Source: Shigella phage CWP003. From it: a DNA stretch of 64,000 bases. The stretch lies in sequence record OL856099; one strand, written 5' to 3'. Positions 7,989 to 61,361 of this stretch are shown here, one piece after another (the first letter of the stretch is position 1; the number at the start of each line of letters is the position of its first letter). The notes under the pieces are model-generated. The model did not search any database. It was not told the DNA's origin and saw only the letters and a list, made by a program, of their open reading frames with translations. Made by a program: the position numbers and the translations under genes.

Positions 7989-8256
7989 ACGTATCATCCG
8001 TATCAAGTAAGTAGTTGTTTTCAAAAGAATCTTACGGATGATACGGATGATACGCGTTGCCGCGATACTTTATAGGAATTCAAATAAATTAATTTAAAAT
8101 TATATATCTAATTTAATTTTATTTTTTTATAAACTCTTATATATGAAAAGTATCCGTATCATCCGTATCATCCGTAGCACACCAGTGATAGCGCGGCTTA
8201 TACACTGATACGGATAAAAATACGCCTCATTTTATCCGTATCATCCGTATCACACT
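7989..8256. repeat. Iteron locus 1: tandem and inverted 9-mers ATCCGTATC/GATACGGAT flanking an AT-rich core
   Basis: Seen directly: TATCATCCGTATCA (7991), CTTACGGATGATACGGATGATACG (8031), AT-rich 8080-8150, GTATCCGTATCATCCGTATCATCCGTAGC (8151), TGATACGGATAAAAATACG (8206), TTATCCGTATCATCCGTATCAC (8232). Confidence 0.65.
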
Positions 8257-47646: not shown

Positions 47647-48729
47647 ATGGCTAGTTTAAGAGAAGAAGCAAAAATAATCGAAGAGTTTTTGACGGAACTC
47701 CAAAGAGGCATTCCAGAAGATGAACGCGTCATGACCGTGTTTGCTCCTGAAGCAACAGTGCAGACTGACGAGCGCGGCAAAAAGATTAACAGCAGCTTCT
47801 GGCCTAAGCCTTGGAAGCTTGGCAAGCCGCTGATGCAACATCAGAACGGTTACGCCTGCATAAGTTCAATGCGTAAGTCTCCCAACCCAAAGACAGGCGA
47901 GATGCGATACTGGCGCACGGAATCGGCTTTCGGTCATGGCATGGCGATGATGGTCGACGACATCGGACACGGTAAAGGGTCCAAAGGCGATTTGGATTTG
48001 GAGTTCTTTTTCGAGCGCCTAAAACCAACCGTCATTGTCGAGACTTCGCCGAACAACCACCAGCTGTGGTACTTCTTTAAAGACCCGATTGACCATCTTA
48101 TCCAGTTCAAGGCATTTCTTGGGTCTTTCGTAAACATGGTACTCAAGAAGGGCGGCGACAACACGATTAAAGATGTGACGCGCGTTGGCCGTGTTCCTGG
48201 GTGTATCAACAACAAACGTGTGACTCACGACGGACCTTACAAATATGTCGATGAGAACGGCGACCCGTTCCGCTGCCGACTTGTTCATGCAGACTACTCT
48301 TTGCGCTACACAATCGAAGAGATTTGCCAAGCCTTCGGTTTCCACGTCGTTATGCCGCAAAAGCGTGAAATTCAAATCGACGTTGACGAATACAAATATG
48401 ACGCTGTTTGGTATAAGATAGCCCAGCAAATCCTTGCGCGCAATAAGATGGGCGAAGGGTCCGATGGCGATGTGGTTGAAAACATGTCAGGTAAATGCCG
48501 CATCATCTGTCCTTGGGGTGAAGAGCACACCAACGGCGACCCATACGGCGCTTATTTTCGCGGCCCAATCCCTGGCGCTGAACATGAATTCGTTTTCGGT
48601 TGCGCTCACGACTGCCACCGGAAAGGGGAAGGCAAGAAAGGATGGACCGCTTTTGTTGAAGCAGTAGTTATGCCTTATATTGAGAATCAACTTGATATGA
48701 TAAATCGTCGCGCAGGTGGCATAAAATAG
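47647..48729 (+). CDS. Primase-polymerase (archaeo-eukaryotic primase-like) with C-terminal zinc-binding region
   Basis: 360 aa; MMVDDIGHG (hhhDxD-like), SPNNHQLWYFF (sxH-like), C-terminal Cys/His cluster (CRIICPWGEEH...CAHDCH). From memory of AEP motifs. Confidence 0.5.
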   Translation: MASLREEAKIIEEFLTELQRGIPEDERVMTVFAPEATVQTDERGKKINSSFWPKPWKLGKPLMQHQNGYACISSMRKSPNPKTGEMRYWRTESAFGHGMAMMVDDIGHGKGSKGDLDLEFFFERLKPTVIVETSPNNHQLWYFFKDPIDHLIQFKAFLGSFVNMVLKKGGDNTIKDVTRVGRVPGCINNKRVTHDGPYKYVDENGDPFRCRLVHADYSLRYTIEEICQAFGFHVVMPQKREIQIDVDEYKYDAVWYKIAQQILARNKMGEGSDGDVVENMSGKCRIICPWGEEHTNGDPYGAYFRGPIPGAEHEFVFGCAHDCHRKGEGKKGWTAFVEAVVMPYIENQLDMINRRAGGIK

Positions 48730-50038: not shown

Positions 50039-51709
50039 ATGTCAATTGAACATGACAATCTTCCAGAGGATACAGGTGATGAATTTGGTGCAATCTTTGA
50101 CGAAATTCAAGACGCTGGTGTTTCAGAAGAAATGCAAGCGGCAGAGCAGCAAGGCACCAGAGCTAAAATCAGCCTACAGCACAAGGCTGTTGAGAAAGAT
50201 GCAGAGCGCATGGAATGCTACGGTGAAGAAGACTTGGTTGAAAGAGCACGTTTGCTCGCCTCACTTCAGGTAATCAAGTTCCCTCATTATAAACCGACGA
50301 AAGATGATTTTGTTCTTCAGGCGGACCGGACGAGTGACATGAACCGTTATGCGGTTTTCGACGCGTTGTTTGATAAGGGAAGCGGCATCGTCCCATTCCC
50401 TCACAAAGATACTTTTCGTGGACGCTTAGTCGACCATCGCGGCGAAACATTCACCGACCGGACGTTGGAAGTCACAGAGATAGTTGCCGCTGTCGATGCA
50501 GCAGGCCTGTCCAACCCAAACTCACGTCAGGTCGCTCAATCCTATAAGGAATGGGCCATGCGTTATCAGCGCGACGACCTGATGGACTTCTTCTACAAGA
50601 AGCTTCCTGAATGGGACGGTACTGCGCGCATTGAGAAATACCTTATCGAGCTATTCCGACCGTTCGATACAGAGTTAAACCGACAAATCGGTGTGTATTT
50701 TTGGCTATCGCTCTATAACCGCCTGACCAACCCTGGCTGTCAAGCGCCAATCTCCATCGCGCTCATCGGCGGCCAGAACGCAGGGAAGAGTTATTTTAGT
50801 AAGCTGCTTTGCGAAGCTATTATGAACGACCGCCACGCAACACCGATTCCGTTGAACTTGGCCGCGCAGAACTTCAACCCGTTCTTGCGAGCTATTACGG
50901 GTCGCTCAATTATCGCGAACGTTGGCGAGATGACGGGCTTTAAAAAGGCCGACATCGAAAACATGAAGGCATTCCTGACTAAGACGGAAGATGACCTGGA
51001 CTTCAAATTTGAAGACACGCAGGTCAAACCACGCCAGTGGATTGCTATCATGGACGGCAACGAATACGCAGGCATGCAGCGTGACGATACGGGCAACCGT
51101 CGTGTGTATCCTATCTTTGTTGGCCAACTCGCCGACAAGGACGGGCAACCGAACTGGTCAAAAGACTTCCAAGCTGACCTTTCCACTTTGAAAGAAGACG
51201 TTTGGCAACTGATGGCTGAGTGTGCTGCGTGGATGGAGAAGCACGGCGAAGCAGGTTACAACGCGTTTGTCGGTGAAACGTCTCGCATGCTTACTGAGTT
51301 CAGTAAGAACGAAATGGAACGCGCTCGCGGCGTTATCCGTGATGAGATGGTCGACAACGACCTTGTTGAAGTCGTCATTACCGCGCCTTATGACCGACAT
51401 CACAGCGGACGCTGGCACATCACCAGTGGTGCAATCGCTATGGGATTCAGAGCTAAGTGCGGCAAGTCGCCTTTCTCACGTACCCTTGCGCCGCACATGT
51501 CGAAGCTTGGATTTGAGCCTGCAACCTATCGCAACCAGCGCGGCTACTTTACGCCGCTGATTAAGAATGAAGCAGGGGAATACATTTCTGACTTGATGAC
51601 TATCTTAGCGTATCTTATTCGCGACGAGTCTGACCCTGAAGATATTGAATTCTTGAAGAAGGTTATTGAACGCAAACGTTCTTTAGGAAGAGATAAGGAT
51701 GAATTCTGA
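50039..51709 (+). CDS. VirE/D5-like P-loop NTPase (primase-associated helicase)
   Basis: 556 aa; central Walker A IGGQNAGKS with a downstream acidic Walker B-like stretch. Confidence 0.65.
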   Translation: MSIEHDNLPEDTGDEFGAIFDEIQDAGVSEEMQAAEQQGTRAKISLQHKAVEKDAERMECYGEEDLVERARLLASLQVIKFPHYKPTKDDFVLQADRTSDMNRYAVFDALFDKGSGIVPFPHKDTFRGRLVDHRGETFTDRTLEVTEIVAAVDAAGLSNPNSRQVAQSYKEWAMRYQRDDLMDFFYKKLPEWDGTARIEKYLIELFRPFDTELNRQIGVYFWLSLYNRLTNPGCQAPISIALIGGQNAGKSYFSKLLCEAIMNDRHATPIPLNLAAQNFNPFLRAITGRSIIANVGEMTGFKKADIENMKAFLTKTEDDLDFKFEDTQVKPRQWIAIMDGNEYAGMQRDDTGNRRVYPIFVGQLADKDGQPNWSKDFQADLSTLKEDVWQLMAECAAWMEKHGEAGYNAFVGETSRMLTEFSKNEMERARGVIRDEMVDNDLVEVVITAPYDRHHSGRWHITSGAIAMGFRAKCGKSPFSRTLAPHMSKLGFEPATYRNQRGYFTPLIKNEAGEYISDLMTILAYLIRDESDPEDIEFLKKVIERKRSLGRDKDEF

Positions 51710-56163: not shown

Positions 56164-56196
56164 AAAAGGTGAGCTAAATGCTTGCCTTTTTATTTA
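56164..56196 (+). terminator. Intrinsic terminator, copy 2 of the repeated cassette
   Basis: Same stem-loop as 54651..54683 followed by TTTTTATTT. Confidence 0.55.
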
Positions 56197-56209
56197 CCTG
56201 TATTATACT
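56182..56209 (+). promoter_or_regulatory. Promoter overlapping terminator copy 2 (TTGCCT, 16 nt spacer, TATACT)
   Basis: Read from sequence. Confidence 0.4.
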
Positions 56210-56237
56210 TATTTCATCAAGCAAAGGAGAATTGATT

Positions 56238-56543
56238 ATGAGTTATGACGAAAGGTTTGGCAGAAGCGGATTATTTCATGACGCTGTACACAAAGACAGC
56301 CAAGATGTTGTCTGCGTAGCATTTAATGAATCTTATTACGGCGTGTTCAAGCCGTTTAAGGTCGGTGAGACATACGAATTGTTTCACGGCTGGTTGACGC
56401 GTCGCAACAACTTGCCTGATATGGAAGTATGGTGGATAGAATACAAGGGTCAGGCTCATCGGTGCAAAGTTGTAGAGATGCACGGCGTCAAATACTATCA
56501 ATCTATTATCAGCGGCTTTGTTTTTAAAGAGGGTGAGCTATGA
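56238..56543 (+). CDS. Hypothetical small protein
   Basis: Start ATG 56238 (AAGGAGA RBS); track ORF 56178..56543 begins inside the terminator loop and is probably too long. Confidence 0.45.
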   Translation: MSYDERFGRSGLFHDAVHKDSQDVVCVAFNESYYGVFKPFKVGETYELFHGWLTRRNNLPDMEVWWIEYKGQAHRCKVVEMHGVKYYQSIISGFVFKEGEL

Positions 56544-56845
56544 GTACAGAAGCAATGAAGAAAAAGGTTTTGAACGCTTTGCAAGAAGCCGTGAACTGTG
56601 GTGCCATTAAAACGTTCACAGAAAGGAACGTCGGTGAAGTGACGGTGCACGGATTTAACAATAACAAAAATGGAATTGCAGCCATCATGCTTTTAAAGAA
56701 TAGCGATGACACATTCATCCTTTACGTTGGCGGATATGAGCTTATCGTTGATGATTTGTTTATCACTTGCGCTGACGGCCTTAACCCGATGTTAACGTTC
56801 GAGCGTCGCGGCATCCGTGTTGCAACATTTGGAGGGAAGTTATGA
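56540..56845 (+). CDS. Hypothetical small protein
   Basis: Track ORF. Confidence 0.4.
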   Translation: MSTEAMKKKVLNALQEAVNCGAIKTFTERNVGEVTVHGFNNNKNGIAAIMLLKNSDDTFILYVGGYELIVDDLFITCADGLNPMLTFERRGIRVATFGGKL

Positions 56846-57317: not shown

Positions 57318-57537
57318 AGCCCGTTTATTATTCATCAAGCCGCATGTGCCGTATAAGATTAGCAAACGCACCTGGCTTAATATTTACAACCGCAGCGGCG
57401 ACCGTTGCTTGTACAAGGCGAAGCGACGCAAGAAGGTATATTTAAAAGCGGTGATGTCGAAGCCCGTCGATGCATTCACCATCGGCGAAAATGAATTGTC
57501 AATCGGCTATCAAATTGAACTCGGAGTAAAGAAATGA
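57301..57537 (+). CDS. Hypothetical small basic protein
   Basis: Track ORF. Confidence 0.35.
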   Translation: MASNLKARLLFIKPHVPYKISKRTWLNIYNRSGDRCLYKAKRRKKVYLKAVMSKPVDAFTIGENELSIGYQIELGVKK

Positions 57538-58043
57538 AAATCGAACAACTCGAAGCAGTATTGGAAATGGCCGTAAAGGCAGGCGCAATCAAAAGCTATC
57601 GTCGCGAGAAGTCAGATAGCGACAGGGTGTTTTGTCGCAACTTCTATATCGTCGGCAACCTTAACGACCACTACGCCATCGAGTGGTATATTAACATAAT
57701 GACCCTTAAGTCGCGCACAATGGAGCTTTGGTGCGATGACATCTGTCTTTCGAATACTCACCCAAGCTATGATGTCGCCCTGGCATTCTATCACGGAAGC
57801 CGTCAACCTGTCGCCCACATCGGTGAGAAGCATGAGCATCTTAAGGCGCAACCAGAGGAATCAATGGAAGGCTGGATTGAATGGGCTGGCGGCGAGAATC
57901 CGGTGCCTGGTAAGAAGGTCAAGTATAAGTTGCGCGACGGCGATGAATCAAGAAAGCCTGTTCTTTCAGATGATTTGAGATGGGAGATGGTTGACGATTC
58001 TTATGCAGCTGACATCATCGCTTATCGCGTCGTGGAGGAATGA
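57534..58043 (+). CDS. Early protein with conserved C-terminal W-x2-W-GGENPVPG...DIIAYRVV module
   Basis: Shares a C-terminal module of about 55 aa with 58927..59502. Confidence 0.5.
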   Translation: MKIEQLEAVLEMAVKAGAIKSYRREKSDSDRVFCRNFYIVGNLNDHYAIEWYINIMTLKSRTMELWCDDICLSNTHPSYDVALAFYHGSRQPVAHIGEKHEHLKAQPEESMEGWIEWAGGENPVPGKKVKYKLRDGDESRKPVLSDDLRWEMVDDSYAADIIAYRVVEE

Positions 58044-58384
58044 TGGAAGAGCAAGAAGGCCGTGAACTAACGTTCGACGAGCAAATGAAAGAGCTTCAGC
58101 GCACATCGCCTCTGCGCGGTAAGGTTGTTGACATTGAGGCGAGCGAATCCAATCTCACCAAGTGGCGGCTCAAGTGCACCAGCACAAGCAAGGATATGTT
58201 AAGCTTCAAAGTCGGTCAGACTTATTTGCTTTATGAGGCAAAAGGACTTATTATTGATGGAAGGCAAATTGTCTTCACGGTCGTCAACGGGATGCGTTGG
58301 TTCGTGAAGCGTGATGTCGAGGGTCGTGACATGTTTGTCGCAGGCTTTCCAGAAGCAAGATTCCAATTGGAGAAGATTAAATGA
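58040..58384 (+). CDS. Hypothetical small protein
   Basis: Track ORF. Confidence 0.4.
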   Translation: MMEEQEGRELTFDEQMKELQRTSPLRGKVVDIEASESNLTKWRLKCTSTSKDMLSFKVGQTYLLYEAKGLIIDGRQIVFTVVNGMRWFVKRDVEGRDMFVAGFPEARFQLEKIK

Positions 58385-58713
58385 AATTGAAATGGTATGT
58401 GGACCCTGAGCCAACAGGCCAATACAGGTCATTCCAACGTCGCGGCTGGCCGACTTGTTACAACGGTAATCCCGATAAAGAAGATTGCGAGCTGCTTGCC
58501 GCCATCGTAAGCCTCGACCATCACGGCTATGAAGGCCACTACGCGAGAGCAACCAACCTTCGGCTCAAGGTGCGCATCCATTTCAAGGTCGCAGGCGAGG
58601 ACCGCACCGGACTCTCCAAGGAAGAGTTCAGCAGCATCGCTGAAGCAAAGGCATGGCTCAAGGCATTCTATAAGAACAACCCTAAATTCTATCCAACTAA
58701 GGATGCGTCATGA
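58381..58713 (+). CDS. Hypothetical small protein
   Basis: Track ORF. Confidence 0.4.
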   Translation: MKLKWYVDPEPTGQYRSFQRRGWPTCYNGNPDKEDCELLAAIVSLDHHGYEGHYARATNLRLKVRIHFKVAGEDRTGLSKEEFSSIAEAKAWLKAFYKNNPKFYPTKDAS

Positions 58714-58943
58714 CCGATAAACAATACGCAGTCGGGCAGCGTGACATCGAGCAACTCGACGAGGGCGGCTATTATACGCGCCACATCTATGCCATGACGC
58801 ATGAAGGACTTTACAGCAAGTCTGACATCGCTGCTGAACTGGCCCATCGTGACTTGCAAATTGACATGTTGCGTCTTGCTCTTGAGAAGCAAACACAAAT
58901 CGCCATCGAAATTTTGGAGAAGTTAAATGATACAACGTTATGA
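58710..58943 (+). CDS. Hypothetical small protein
   Basis: Track ORF. Confidence 0.4.
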   Translation: MTDKQYAVGQRDIEQLDEGGYYTRHIYAMTHEGLYSKSDIAAELAHRDLQIDMLRLALEKQTQIAIEILEKLNDTTL

Positions 58944-59502
58944 TGTTGATTATTGCACGCAGCACGCTTGCACATGCGAAGTTGTAAAGGATGATGAAGG
59001 CGGCTATGTTGAATATGAGGACTATGCCGCGTTGGAAGCGAAATACAGTGAAGTAAAAAGTCGCGTCGAGCTGGAAGCGAAACATAGTGAAGTTAAAACG
59101 TATGCAGTAAACTGCAACGACGCGTGGCTTAATACAAAGGGTGATGACACCTCTGGTTCATATGTCAAGTTTTCTGATTATGCCGCGCTGGAAGCGAAAT
59201 ATAGTGAAGCGCAACGCGAGTTGGTTGCATTACGCTCACAGGTCCGTGATGCATCGGCGCTCGTTAAGCAGTTGCACGATGTTGTTGCTACTATAGTCGT
59301 GGATGTTGATGCGCCGAAGGAAGAAGCGTGGACCGTGTGGCACGGTGGAGAGAATCCGGTGCCTGGGGAAATGGTTGAATACAAGCTGCGCAATGGAGAA
59401 GATAAAGTGCTGTCAAGACTCTCTGACCATCTTCACTGGGGTCATATAGGCGCGTTAAAGGGCAGCGACATCATCGCTTATCGGGTCGTTAAGGAGGGGT
59501 GA
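58927..59502 (+). CDS. Early protein with internal DYAALEAKYSE repeats and the shared C-terminal module
   Basis: Three copies of (E/S)DYAALEAKYSE-like repeats; C-terminus WTVWHGGENPVPGEMVEYKLRNGED...DIIAYRVVKEG. Confidence 0.5.
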   Translation: MIQRYDVDYCTQHACTCEVVKDDEGGYVEYEDYAALEAKYSEVKSRVELEAKHSEVKTYAVNCNDAWLNTKGDDTSGSYVKFSDYAALEAKYSEAQRELVALRSQVRDASALVKQLHDVVATIVVDVDAPKEEAWTVWHGGENPVPGEMVEYKLRNGEDKVLSRLSDHLHWGHIGALKGSDIIAYRVVKEG

Positions 59503-60035
59503 TGGGTAACAATGCAGGATGGGGCAAGCCGCGATACTCCAAACTTGCCCACTACTTTGACAATGGCGAACAAATCAGCTTGTGCGGCAAATTCAATAAG
59601 GGCAATACGGAGTTGACCGACTCTCAAGAAATGGAGTCAAGTTTAACAATTGGTGATTGCGCGAAGTGTCGCAAGGCATTATATGAATTATTAACTCTAA
59701 AGGGATTGAAAGTTGCAAAATCAAGGGATGAATGGGTCATGAACGTCTGTGAAGGGAATACAGAATTAATGGATGAATGGCTAAAGACGGATGCGGTCAA
59801 TGCCATATTCAAAAGGAATTATAAGACCTGTATGCGTTACAAGATGAAAGATGATATTATTTTTATGGTATTATCTTATTCAAGGAACACAACGGACGTC
59901 AAAAAGCTTCGACAATATCGCCACAAGGTCATGTGTGAATTGCGCCGTTTAGGAGTGATTGTTGATAATAATGTCATTAAAACGGAGTTGGAGAAGCGGG
60001 ATAAAAGGAATGGTGACTGGAAGGTCAGCGGATAA
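59499..60035 (+). CDS. Hypothetical protein with N-terminal Cys pairs (possible zinc ribbon)
   Basis: Track ORF; ...LCGKF...DCAKCRKA. Confidence 0.4.
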   Translation: MMGNNAGWGKPRYSKLAHYFDNGEQISLCGKFNKGNTELTDSQEMESSLTIGDCAKCRKALYELLTLKGLKVAKSRDEWVMNVCEGNTELMDEWLKTDAVNAIFKRNYKTCMRYKMKDDIIFMVLSYSRNTTDVKKLRQYRHKVMCELRRLGVIVDNNVIKTELEKRDKRNGDWKVSG

Positions 60036-60300
60036 AGAACACTGTATTGCGTGTTTTGAATAATGGGATGTGTACAATTGGTCGCTTTACGCGGCCTTTT
60101 GTTGTTGTTTGGGTCGTGTTTCGTGATTGAATAATTATGAGGCGATGTTTTATTTATTAATTGTGCGGAAATATTTAGAAATATATATAGACAGGATTGT
60201 TAATATTTTAATAGTGTATGGCTATCGGTCCGTGGTGTTTGTTAGGAATTATCTATGGATTGAAATTTTAGTGTCGTGAAACGTGGTGTTTGAACATATT

Positions 60301-60660
60301 TGATACGCGTAAAATACGGCTAAAAATTAAGCGTATCATGGCTGCAGGCCGCGCCGTTCCTGGATTCCTCTTTTCCAAATTGGTACACCCTTACGTCATG
60401 ATACGTCATGGTTTTTTATCCGTATCAGTGTACAGCCCTTGCCGCGCCTGGCTTGTACATTAATCTTACGGATGATACGGATAAAACTGGGCATCGTTAT
60501 ATATATAATTTGAAAAATTAATTAACTCCATTTTGAATTAATTTAAATTAATTTTTTTCTACATCCTCATACTTATGTTAATTTATATATAACGTATTAT
60601 CCGTAAGATATAAGTAAAAACAAAGACTTGCGGCAATACGGATGATACGTCATGATACGC
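60301..60660. repeat. Iteron locus 2: GATACGGAT/ATCCGTATC and GATACGTCATG repeats around an AT-rich core; shares a 21-mer with locus 1
   Basis: Seen directly: ACGTCATGATACGTCATGG, TTTTATCCGTATCAG, AATCTTACGGATGATACGGAT (identical to 8029-8049), AT-rich 60490-60590, TTATCCGTAAGAT, CAATACGGATGATACGTCATGATACGC. Confidence 0.65.
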
Positions 60661-60806
60661 TTCAACCAGCCAGTAGCGGCTAAGTCATTGATTTGCATAA
60701 CAAGCGGCGAAAGGGATGGACTTCTTTTATACGTATCAAACAGTACACCACGCACCACGGTCCGATATTCATTCAGCACTATGATTTATGTACGTTTACA
60801 GCCAAT

Positions 60807-60835
60807 TTGAACATCAATCTGCACTTGAATATAAT
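60807..60835 (+). promoter_or_regulatory. Sigma70-like promoter (TTGAAC, 17 nt spacer, TATAAT)
   Basis: Read from sequence; followed by two tandem TTGCACTAT motifs overlapping the RBS and ATG of the downstream gene. Confidence 0.45.
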
Positions 60836-60887
60836 GTTCAATCATTATATAATTCACACTATTAATTTGCACTATGGGATTTGCACT

Positions 60888-61361
60888 ATGAGTCAAGATT
60901 ATGTAGCAATGCCTGAAGACTTTGAAGACCCGCGATTTGCAGAGCATAATCAGGCATTATTCGATGAGTTCATCGACCTTGTTATTCAGGGCCATGACAT
61001 GCGCGCAGCTTTTGCACTAGTATTTGGCATGGAGGTTGCGACCGATAACTACACTGGCCAGCGAATCCTGTGCACTCAGCGCAATCCGTACTACAAGATG
61101 CGCTACAAAAAGCGTATGGAAGAGATGCCATTGAAGGAATTGTGGAGCGTAAAGAGTTCCATTCACAATTTAGTGAAGCTTGTGCGTGATCCAGAAGTCG
61201 CAGCATCAGCCAAGCTTAATGCCATTCGTGAACTGAATATCATCTACGGCATTACGATGATTGATGAAAACGGCAATAGTAAAATGGGCCGTTCCATGGA
61301 TGATTTCTACAAGGATTTTGGAGAGGCGGCCAAAGAGGGTGAGCAATTCTCCCGCCACTAG
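60888..61361 (+). CDS. Small helical DNA-binding-like protein (possible regulator or small terminase-like protein)
   Basis: 157 aa from ATG 60888 in frame with track ORF 60693..61361; central stretch IDLVIQGHDMRAAFALVFGMEVATDNYTGQRIL reads as an HTH-like segment. Functional call speculative. Confidence 0.4.
   Translation: MSQDYVAMPEDFEDPRFAEHNQALFDEFIDLVIQGHDMRAAFALVFGMEVATDNYTGQRILCTQRNPYYKMRYKKRMEEMPLKELWSVKSSIHNLVKLVRDPEVAASAKLNAIRELNIIYGITMIDENGNSKMGRSMDDFYKDFGEAAKEGEQFSRH

What the first reader, a model, noticed from the sequence alone, without database searches (positions are those of the whole stretch)
57534..59502. Two early proteins share a conserved C-terminal module; one also carries internal tandem repeats
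57534..58043 and 58927..59502 end in the same module of about 55 aa (W-x2-W-GGENPVPG-x-V-x-YKLR-D/N-G...DIIAYRVV-E/K-E) on unrelated N-terminal parts. The second has three DYAALEAKYSE repeats. A shared module on variable heads is typical of anti-defence or host-takeover families that diversify their targeting domain.
Basis: seen in the sequence. Interest (0 to 1): 0.5.

Follow-up and report, generated by a model that had tools for sequence, protein, structure and literature searches.

The report
Shuffled small phage domain, function unknown
Two small proteins of an E. coli Wifcevirus phage each end in one copy of a widespread 58-residue phage domain that no curated database or paper describes, and related phages swap this domain like a cassette; what it binds or does is unknown.

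Summary
ORFs 57534..58043 (p1, 169 aa) and 58927..59502 (p2, 191 aa) share a 58-aa C-terminal module (53% identity, E=3e-18) on unrelated N-terminal parts.

The module is an autonomous domain, not a recent duplication.
- It has a confident beta-rich AlphaFold model (pLDDT 83), and a disordered linker precedes it in p1.
- It occurs free-standing, in tandem arrays of 2-8, and N-terminal, internal or C-terminal to many partners.
- An exhaustive profile search finds 10,262 cluster representatives.
- The recurrent identifiable partners are MazG-like NTP pyrophosphohydrolase domains. There is also an amidoligase fusion and adjacency.

The head is conserved (90% identity, dN/dS about 0.1-0.2). The module exists as discrete, deeply diverged alleles exchanged at the linker. 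p2 is fully combinatorial: three heads, two coiled-coil linkers, one or two modules, and an optional 52-aa insert that creates the "repeats".

Best guess, which is inferred: a non-catalytic, multivalent binding module. An anti-defence role is untested.

The parts
57534..58043 (+). p1 gene (169 aa): genus-restricted head + linker + module
   Evidence: ORF list; ribosome-binding site GGAG upstream of the ATG; 61 relatives, almost all on ~68-kb Wifcevirus-size contigs
57534..57842 (+). p1 head domain (aa 1-103): one helix plus eight beta-strands, phrog_21861
57843..57866 (+). p1 inter-domain linker (aa 104-111), disordered; recombination breakpoint
   Evidence: pLDDT <50 for residues 104-111. Linker identity among orthologues is 59.7%. 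Head dS 0.18 versus module dS 1.13 for window vs phage kaset. Head-only orthologues end here.
57867..58040 (+). module copy 1 (p1 aa 112-169)
   Evidence: BLASTP E=3e-18 to copy 2; PHROGs 9174/11995/16943/26870, E 1e-6 to 1e-10
58927..59502 (+). p2 gene (191 aa): hairpin head + repeated linker/insert + coiled coil + module
   Evidence: ORF list; ribosome-binding site GGAGAA 6 nt upstream; 881 relatives at E<=1e-3
58927..59052 (+). p2 head type 'a' (MIQRYDVDYCTQHACTCEVVKDDEGGYVEYE) plus first DYAALEAKYSE
   Evidence: One of three alternative heads among relatives. PHROG hits 23083 (5.9e-9), 29624 (7.5e-6), 22955 (1.5e-4); weak 3592 'Lar-like' E=5e-5.
59053..59208 (+). 52-aa insertion (aa 43-94) absent from the 139-aa orthologues; it carries a second hairpin head plus DYAALEAKYSE
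   Evidence: P0209 (139 aa) is collinear with p2 minus these residues. The insert is present in about 15 of 120 relatives and combines with head a or head b.
59005..59053 (+). 49-nt repeat unit, copy 1 (reference)
   Evidence: the repeat finder family D1
59044..59092 (+). 49-nt repeat unit, copy 2 (61% identity, overlaps copy 1)
   Evidence: the repeat finder family D1
59161..59209 (+). 49-nt repeat unit, copy 3 (80% identity)
   Evidence: the repeat finder family D1
59209..59295 (+). p2 helical linker (aa 95-123) with a 3-4-3-4 heptad pattern (L99, L102, V106, A109, V113, L116, V120, I123): probable short coiled coil
   Evidence: Read directly from the sequence. Weak matches to coiled-coil Pfam families DivIC and TPR. 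An alternative linker 'coil 2' replaces it in about 20 of 120 relatives.
59323..59499 (+). module copy 2 (p2 aa 133-191)
   Evidence: PHROG hits; AlphaFold model pLDDT 83.1 with four short beta-strands
60080..60096 (+). terminator-like hairpin plus T-run that closes the gene string
   Evidence: consensus scan; sequence; the same position is an ~850-bp gene-free gap in phage WFC

Best explanation
SHOWN. The shared segment is one copy of a widespread, uncurated, roughly 58-residue beta-rich phage domain. Its consensus is GWIxWxGGxxPV..V.V..R.G...A....WxH.....DI[IV]AYR. It folds on its own and is shuffled freely. It occurs as a free-standing 57-75-aa protein, as tandem arrays of 2-8 copies, and on either side of many unrelated partners. 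In Wifcevirus phages the two loci that carry it are recombination mosaics. p1 is a conserved head joined through a flexible linker to one of several deeply diverged module alleles. p2 is built combinatorially from three heads, two coiled-coil linkers, one or two modules and an optional 52-aa insert. INFERRED. The module is most likely a non-catalytic binding (adaptor or recognition) domain. Fixed scaffold residues (the three Trp, GG, P, DIIAYR) hold up a variable surface, namely the beta2-beta3 hairpin and the loop after the third Trp. Avidity matters: it is achieved by tandem copies in other phages and, in p2, by the coiled-coil linker. The module would dock its carrier (p1's head, NTP pyrophosphohydrolases, amidoligases, HTH domains) onto an intracellular ligand. 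p1 and p2 are then accessory proteins of the replication-proximal gene string whose binding specificity is varied by cassette exchange. The ligand is unknown.
For: Pairwise similarity is E=3e-18 and only two copies exist in the window. Four PHROGs hold the module at different profile positions. Placement varies among deposited phages: rV5 gp228 carries it C-terminal, phiM12_419 is two tandem modules and nothing else, ACF1_53 carries it N-terminal, and PEi21 gp05 and KcrB gp028 carry it internally. There are 39 mostly free-standing relatives. The exhaustive profile search gives 10,262 representatives at E<=1e-3 and 3,453 at 1e-10, and the top 150 all have 2-8 copies. The module model has pLDDT 83, and the p1 model has a disordered linker at residues 104-111. 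Partners are diverse (112 non-module segments, largest cluster 5) and lie on either side of the modules. The recurrent identifiable partners are dGTP_diPhyd_N, DUF3310, DUF6378, dATP-dGTP_PPHyd and HD. An amidoligase is fused to the module in P0053 and is adjacent to the 8-module protein P0072. In the genus, the p1 head is 89.8% identical versus 60.6% for the module. Variation concentrates in beta2-beta3 and the post-Trp loop while scaffold residues are fixed. dN/dS is 0.05-0.23 within a module type, which means purifying selection and a functional protein. Between types dS is 0.6-2.8, against a head dS of 0.13-0.9, which means allele replacement at the linker. The p2 combinations are tabulated.
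Against: No ligand, partner or phenotype is known for any member. All annotated members are 'hypothetical' and no paper mentions the motif or its PHROGs. The fold has no informative PDB neighbour, so 'binding domain' rests on behaviour (promiscuity, repetition, variable surface), not on homology. Conserved polar residues (R, H, D, Y, R) could equally mark a small-molecule pocket or even a catalytic site. The fusion statistics come from the 150 best-scoring representatives, which are biased toward multi-copy proteins. The coiled coil of p2 is inferred from a heptad pattern only. Mosaicism in phage accessory regions can also be largely neutral.
Confidence: 0.45

Rival explanations
1. One reading: p1 and p2 are anti-defence or host-takeover proteins in which the shared module is the constant functional part and the N-terminal heads are diversifying targeting domains.
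For: They sit in a string of small unknown genes after the replication genes, as accessory genes often do. Family members sit in comparable accessory regions of temperate and lytic phages, sometimes near Lar-like, methyltransferase, NADAR or HNH genes. There is strong mosaic diversification within one genus. Wifcevirus phages are blocked by E. coli K-12 cryptic prophages, so defence interactions matter for them. The p2 head weakly hits phrog_3592 'Lar-like restriction alleviation' (E=5e-5).
Against: There is no significant hit to any characterised anti-defence or defence-related family. The Lar hit has no stretch that passes on its own, and Pfam Lar_restr_allev is not matched. In p1 it is the module, not the head, that varies. 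Across the family the module behaves as the appended, repeated adaptor of enzymes rather than as an effector. No experimental data exist.
Confidence: 0.2
2. The module is a small-molecule (nucleotide-type) binding domain. Fused to enzymes it would act as a sensor or regulatory unit, as CBS or ACT domains do. As a free-standing or multimerised protein it would act as a sponge.
Confidence: 0.15
3. The module is a homotypic assembly unit. Proteins that carry it (p1 with p2, or copies within arrays) associate through module-module contacts, possibly forming a closed multi-blade structure.
For: Two proteins of one phage carry it. Copy numbers of 2-8 occur with very short inter-module linkers. Each module is a small four-stranded sheet.
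Confidence: 0.1
4. The similarity is only a recent local duplication, or a chance resemblance, without a true domain boundary.
For: The two genes lie 0.9 kb apart on the same strand. The last 29 nt of the two copies are 90% identical.
Against: Identity is 53% in protein and about 70% in DNA at the 5' part, and no repeat family covers the middle of the module. The same module occurs in thousands of unrelated phage proteins. There is a disordered linker at the junction. Head-only orthologues and free-standing modules exist.
Confidence: 0.01

Closest known systems
PHROG families phrog_9174, phrog_11995, phrog_16943, phrog_26870 (all 'unknown function')
   Same: They contain the same module. Both window copies match at E 1e-6 to 1e-11, and all 150 top family representatives match phrog_9174.
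   Different: These are automatic whole-protein clusters, not a domain definition. The module sits at different positions in each profile (17-77/157, 76-129/131, 111-162/166, 109-165/236). No function, structure or name is attached.
Uncharacterised phage proteins rV5 gp228, Sinorhizobium phiM12_419, Acidovorax ACF1_53, Edwardsiella PEi21 gp05, Caulobacter KcrB gp028
   Same: They carry the same module at 33-53% identity to the window copies. Their BFVD models superpose on the window model with TM 0.75-0.9.
   Different: The architectures differ (C-terminal, double, N-terminal, internal) and the non-module parts are unrelated. None has been studied.
SaV-like / DUF3310, dGTP_diPhyd_N and DUF6378 proteins (all-alpha, MazG-like NTP pyrophosphohydrolase superfamily)
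   Same: They are the most frequent identifiable fusion partners of the module in other phages.
   Different: p1 and p2 contain none of these domains. The module itself is beta-rich and unrelated to them. PHROG labels such as 'nucleotide kinase' or 'endolysin; inhibits RNA polymerase' on these fusions trace back to the DUF3310 and dGTP_diPhyd_N parts.
Small repeat-forming accessory binding or sensor domains (CBS pairs, ACT, SH3b, LysM). Analogy from general knowledge, not homology.
   Same: The behaviour is alike: about 60 aa, occurring free-standing, in tandem, or appended to either end of unrelated enzymes.
   Different: There is no sequence or fold similarity and the ligand is unknown.
Lar-like restriction alleviation proteins (Pfam PF14354, phrog_3592)
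   Same: The p2 N-terminus (residues 3-43) gives a weak hit to phrog_3592 (E=5e-5). A Lar_restr_allev gene lies 1.2 kb downstream of a free-standing module gene in L007/L008.
   Different: There is no Pfam match and no stretch passing on its own. The p2 head has C-x2-H-x-C-x-C rather than the paired CxxC zinc ribbon (the Lar pattern is recalled from memory).

Membership tests
Uncurated 'W-x2-W-x-GG-x2-P ... W-x-H ... DI[IV]AYR' phage module (PHROGs 9174/11995/16943/26870) | Significant match of the segment alone to the family profiles | tested here: met
   The isolated 58-59-aa segments hit four PHROGs at E 1.5e-5 to 7.6e-11. A profile built from them retrieves 10,262 representatives.
Uncurated 'W-x2-W-x-GG-x2-P ... 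W-x-H ... DI[IV]AYR' phage module (PHROGs 9174/11995/16943/26870) | Conserved scaffold residues (W, W, GG, P, V, R, W, D-I-x-A-Y-R) | tested here: met
   All are present in both window copies. Family frequencies are 0.77-0.99.
Uncurated 'W-x2-W-x-GG-x2-P ... W-x-H ... DI[IV]AYR' phage module (PHROGs 9174/11995/16943/26870) | Autonomous domain (folds alone, occurs free-standing and in tandem, flanked by a linker) | tested here: met
   Module model pLDDT 83. Free-standing 57-75-aa proteins. Two to eight tandem copies. Disordered linker in p1. Head-only p1 orthologues.
Lar-like restriction alleviation proteins | Match to Pfam Lar_restr_allev (PF14354) at or near its gathering score | tested here: not met
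   No PF14354 hit for p2 even at E<=1.
Lar-like restriction alleviation proteins | Match to phrog_3592 | tested here: inconclusive
   Whole-protein E=5e-5, 24.7 bits, but no stretch passes on its own; it covers only residues 3-43 against positions 5-45 of a 182-position profile.
Known defence or anti-defence components | Homology to a catalogued family | tested here: not met
   No PADLOC hit for p1, p2 or eight neighbours, and no Pfam or NCBIfam hit. No dedicated anti-defence library was available, so absence from such a catalogue is not fully tested.
Anti-defence / host-takeover function | A phenotype: toxicity, restriction alleviation, or rescue from a defence system | not testable with these tools
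   Requires experiments. The BASEL Wifcevirus isolates Bas98-101 carry orthologues.
Tandem-repeat protein | Head-to-tail array of a repeat unit | tested here: not met
   Tandem Repeats Finder finds none. The three 49-nt copies are spaced 39 and 117 nt apart. The arrangement is explained by a 52-aa insertion relative to 139-aa orthologues.
All-alpha NTP pyrophosphohydrolases (DUF3310 / dGTP_diPhyd_N / MazG-like) | Presence of the catalytic all-alpha domain in p1 or p2 | tested here: not met
   No such Pfam hit in p1, p2 or their neighbours. The domain occurs only in other members of the module family.
Coiled-coil oligomerisation segment (p2 aa 95-123) | Heptad a/d hydrophobic pattern over at least 4 heptads | tested here: met
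   L99, L102, V106, A109, V113, L116, V120 and I123 are spaced 3-4-3-4 (sequence). Weak DivIC and TPR coiled-coil matches. The oligomeric state was not tested.

The most novel reading that the evidence does not exclude
The module is a previously undescribed intracellular recognition fold used by thousands of phages of Proteobacteria. A fixed Trp/Gly/Pro scaffold would present a hypervariable hairpin-and-loop surface that determines which host (for example defence) or phage factor is bound. Phages would exchange module alleles and copy number the way they exchange receptor-binding domains, so that attached heads and enzymes (NTP pyrophosphohydrolases, amidoligases) are retargeted. p1 and p2 of Wifcevirus would then be a tractable example of such a programmable adaptor locus.
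Probability: 0.2. Interest if true: 0.75.

Novelty: new member of a known kind. Interest (0 to 1): 0.5.

Why it matters
The domain is abundant: more than 10,000 clusters at 50% identity. Yet it has no Pfam or NCBIfam model, no solved structure, no fold neighbour and no literature. Defining it would annotate part of thousands of 'hypothetical' phage proteins.

The Wifcevirus loci add an evolutionary signal. Functional module alleles under purifying selection are swapped at a linker onto a conserved head. That pattern is typical of specificity determinants.

Orthologues exist in cultivable BASEL phages (Bas98-101), so the function is experimentally accessible. If the ligand turns out to be a host defence or replication factor, the recurrent fusions to nucleotide-pool enzymes and amidoligases would acquire a mechanistic meaning. 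If not, this remains an ordinary example of domain shuffling among phage accessory genes.

Tried and rejected
- Paralogy seen by eye between the p1 head and ORF 56540..56845, and between ORF 58040..58384 and ORF 56178..56543. BLASTP gave E=8.9 and a 12-residue patch at E=0.007. Rejected.
- Lar-like identity of the p2 head. Only a weak PHROG hit and no Pfam hit. Not accepted.
- Tandem repeat array. TRF was negative.
- Sequence search of solved structures with two module profiles, with p2 and with the p1 profile. Nothing at E<=10 except chance hits.
- The AFDB Foldseek library was unavailable.
- BFVD returned only uncharacterised family members.
- The PHROG partner labels 'nucleotide kinase', 'phosphofructokinase' and 'endolysin; inhibits RNA polymerase' turned out to be DUF3310, dGTP_diPhyd_N or related segments, not real kinase or lysin links.
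- DNA-binding role. Disfavoured because the module is acidic: median pI 5.1, and only 15% of copies have pI >8.
- Source names for cluster members. None were informative.
- Literature searches for the motif strings and for the PHROG ids. Zero papers.
- Alignment-based scan of bacterial genomes failed because no stretch was conserved enough. A single-sequence scan gave 9 prophage-like loci in alpha-, beta- and gamma-proteobacteria and one actinobacterial MAG.
- Single-linkage clustering of Wifcevirus modules at 70% identity merged nearly everything and was uninformative. It was replaced by distance to the two window copies and by dN/dS.
Full report
1. What the window is

The 5-kb stretch around the finding is 97.9% identical to Wifcevirus WFH and 87-93% identical to about 35 other Wifcevirus-type E. 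coli myophages. These have ~68-kb genomes and are distant relatives of Pbunavirus. They have been isolated on E. coli K-12 only after removal of its cryptic prophages.

The two ORFs belong to a + strand string of small, translationally coupled genes. The string follows a RepB-type primase (47647..48729) and a VapE-like primase/helicase (50039..51709). It ends at a hairpin plus T-run at 60080-60100. Every gene of the string is annotated 'hypothetical' in every deposited relative. Whether the genes are expressed early was not tested.

2. The observation

p1 (57534..58043, 169 aa) and p2 (58927..59502, 191 aa) exist as described and have ribosome-binding sites.

- The C-terminal 58 residues align without gaps at 53% identity, E=3e-18. 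The N-terminal parts do not align.
- There are only two copies in the window.
- At DNA level the copies are 70% identical over the first 80 nt and 90% over the last 29 nt, and no repeat family spans the stretch between. This is not a recent duplication.
- DYAALEAKYSE occurs exactly twice, 52 aa apart, plus a degenerate copy 13 aa after the first. The DNA shows three 49-nt units at 59005, 59044 and 59161.
- TRF finds no tandem array.

3. The module is an autonomous, widespread, uncurated domain

- Pfam, NCBIfam and PADLOC have nothing for either protein or for the isolated module.
- Four PHROGs of unknown function match it, each at a different place in its profile.
- tblastn finds it in 161 deposited phages: Wifcevirus, rV5-like, and Sinorhizobium, Caulobacter, Acidovorax and Edwardsiella phages. 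A second query from another branch of the family finds 126 more records: Klebsiella, Burkholderia, Pseudomonas, Aeromonas, Rhizobium and others.
- Its position varies. It is C-terminal in rV5 gp228, N-terminal in ACF1_53 and internal in PEi21 gp05 and KcrB gp028. phiM12_419 consists of two modules and nothing else.
- The word-indexed search returned 39 relatives, mostly free-standing proteins of 57-75 aa.
- An exhaustive profile search of 1.84 billion representatives found 10,262 at E<=1e-3 and 3,453 at E<=1e-10. The 150 best all carry 2-8 tandem copies.
- AlphaFold2 on a 40-sequence alignment gives a confident model (pLDDT 83.1) with four short beta-strands.
- No paper contains the motif or the PHROG ids.
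- Prophage-like copies occur in alpha-, beta- and gamma-proteobacteria and one actinobacterial MAG.

4. Partners and context

Among the 150 top representatives there are 112 non-module segments of 70 aa or more. They fall into many small clusters (largest 5) and lie N-terminal (67), C-terminal (38) or between modules (7). The same partner family can lie on either side.

The only recurrent identifiable partners belong to the all-alpha, MazG-like NTP pyrophosphohydrolase superfamily: dGTP_diPhyd_N x6, DUF3310 x6, DUF6378 x4, dATP-dGTP_PPHyd x1, plus HD x1. There are a few HTH/RHH domains and long coiled coils. PHROG labels such as 'nucleotide kinase' or 'endolysin; inhibits RNA polymerase' trace back to these same domains.

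A second enzyme link was found. P0072 (eight modules) is immediately followed by an Amidoligase_2 gene (E=8.6e-7) and a weak GATase gene. The long N-terminal part of P0053 (three modules) is homologous to that amidoligase (28% identity over 264 aa, E=4e-16).

Neighbourhoods of free-standing members are strings of small unknown ORFs. In temperate phages these lie between integrase and recombination or replication genes; in lytic phages they lie near replication genes. There is no fixed partner gene.

The module is acidic (median pI 5.1, net charge -3), which argues against simple DNA-backbone binding.

5. The heads

p2 has four parts:
- a short hairpin-like head;
- the DYAALEAKYSE element;
- a helix whose hydrophobic residues follow a 3-4-3-4 heptad pattern, so probably a short coiled coil (sequence; weak DivIC and TPR matches);
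- the module.

A metagenomic protein outside the genus (P0034) has the same head, helix and module layout.

6. Mosaicism in the genus

p1:
- 46 of 53 relatives carry the module. Seven are head-only or frameshifted at the junction.
- Among 45 full-length orthologues the head is 89.8% identical pairwise and the module 60.6%.
- Variation is concentrated in the beta2-beta3 hairpin and the loop after the third Trp, while scaffold residues are fixed.
- Nei-Gojobori estimates on eight phages give head dN/dS of 0.06-0.32.
- The modules fall into at least four types: window/EC150; WFC/SP13/Bas99; Bas100/kaset; ECO71P1.
- Within a type dN/dS is 0.05-0.23. Between types dS is 0.6-2.8, well above the head's dS. 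For window vs kaset the head dS is 0.18 and the module dS is 1.13.
- This is allele (cassette) replacement at the linker, with each allele under purifying selection. It is not in-place positive selection.

p2:
- Among 120 relatives there are three heads, two alternative helical linkers and one or two modules of several types.
- The 52-aa insert is present or absent, and it occurs in most combinations.
- The 139-aa form (P0209) equals the window protein minus residues 43-94. The 'repeats' are therefore the footprint of an inserted second head bounded by the repeated linker.
- p1-locus modules are nearly all of the p1 type. The p2 locus carries the p2 type plus others.

7. Interpretation

Shown:
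- The shared segment is a real, autonomous, promiscuous domain.
- The domain boundary is real.
- The loci are recombination mosaics.
- In p1 the module, not the head, is the variable element.

Inferred: the module is a non-catalytic binding or recognition unit. The behaviour that suggests this is:
- a fixed scaffold with a variable surface;
- multiplication in tandem, or by a coiled coil in p2;
- attachment to either end of unrelated enzymes and DNA-binding domains.

Confidence in this reading is 0.45. The ligand is unknown.

Rivals:
- a nucleotide-type small-molecule sensor or sponge (suggested by the partners and the conserved polar and aromatic residues, 0.15);
- a homotypic assembly unit (0.1);
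- a mere recent duplication (refuted).

8. Novelty and score

The two proteins are new members of an already clustered (PHROG) but undescribed family. The phenomenon, domain shuffling in phage accessory genes, is ordinary. The size of the family, the absence of any curated model, structure or paper, and the cassette-like allele exchange in cultivable phages make it moderately interesting (0.5).

Noticed in passing
window 7990-8252 and 60301-60738: The motif TGATACG (9-bp unit GATACGGAT / ATCCGTATC, often as back-to-back pairs 9 nt apart, in both orientations) occurs 21 times against 7.1 +/- 2.4 expected; 0 of 100 shuffles reach 21. Seventeen of the copies sit in two AT-rich intergenic gaps. 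These look like binding-site arrays for one regulator, or phage-specific promoter or origin elements.
   Followed up: partly
window 60100-60900: An ~800-bp AT-rich gap after the terminator-like hairpin has no convincing ORF, no Rfam family (E<=1) and no tRNA. It has several sigma-70-like promoter matches at 60807-60853 and many short inverted repeats. The equivalent ~850-bp gap exists in phage WFC.
   Followed up: partly
L017 4167-9077 (GCA_040384165.1 contig JAWVHB010005671.1); proteins P0053 and P0069: A protein with eight module copies is directly followed by an Amidoligase_2 gene and a weak GATase gene. In another lineage a homologous amidoligase region is fused to three modules (E=4e-16). 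This is a fusion plus adjacency link between the module and amidoligase systems.
   Followed up: partly
proteins P0006, P0002 and P0355 (other Wifcevirus-type contigs), corresponding to window 58381-58398 and 57534-58043: P0006 (70 aa) joins the first six residues of window ORF 58381..58713 (MKLKWY) to a p2-type module, which implies a ~0.9-kb deletion or fusion in that phage. P0355 (125 aa) and P0002 (59 aa), each with a longest contig of 2771 nt (so probably the same contig), look like p1 split by a frameshift exactly at the linker/module junction.
   Followed up: no
window 59499-60035: The last gene of the string (178 aa) matches phrog_2358 (E=1.5e-17, unknown function). It also gives a sub-threshold Pfam hit to Geminivirus AL3 (E=1.5e-4, 22.1 bits against a cut-off of 24.1), which is probably chance.
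   Followed up: no
phage records MG0656xx labelled 'Campylobacter phage' (e.g. MG065654, 135-143 kb): Sixteen records named Campylobacter phage carry a module at the same identity level to the query as rV5-like E. coli phages and have rV5-like genome sizes. Their host labels may be wrong.
   Followed up: no
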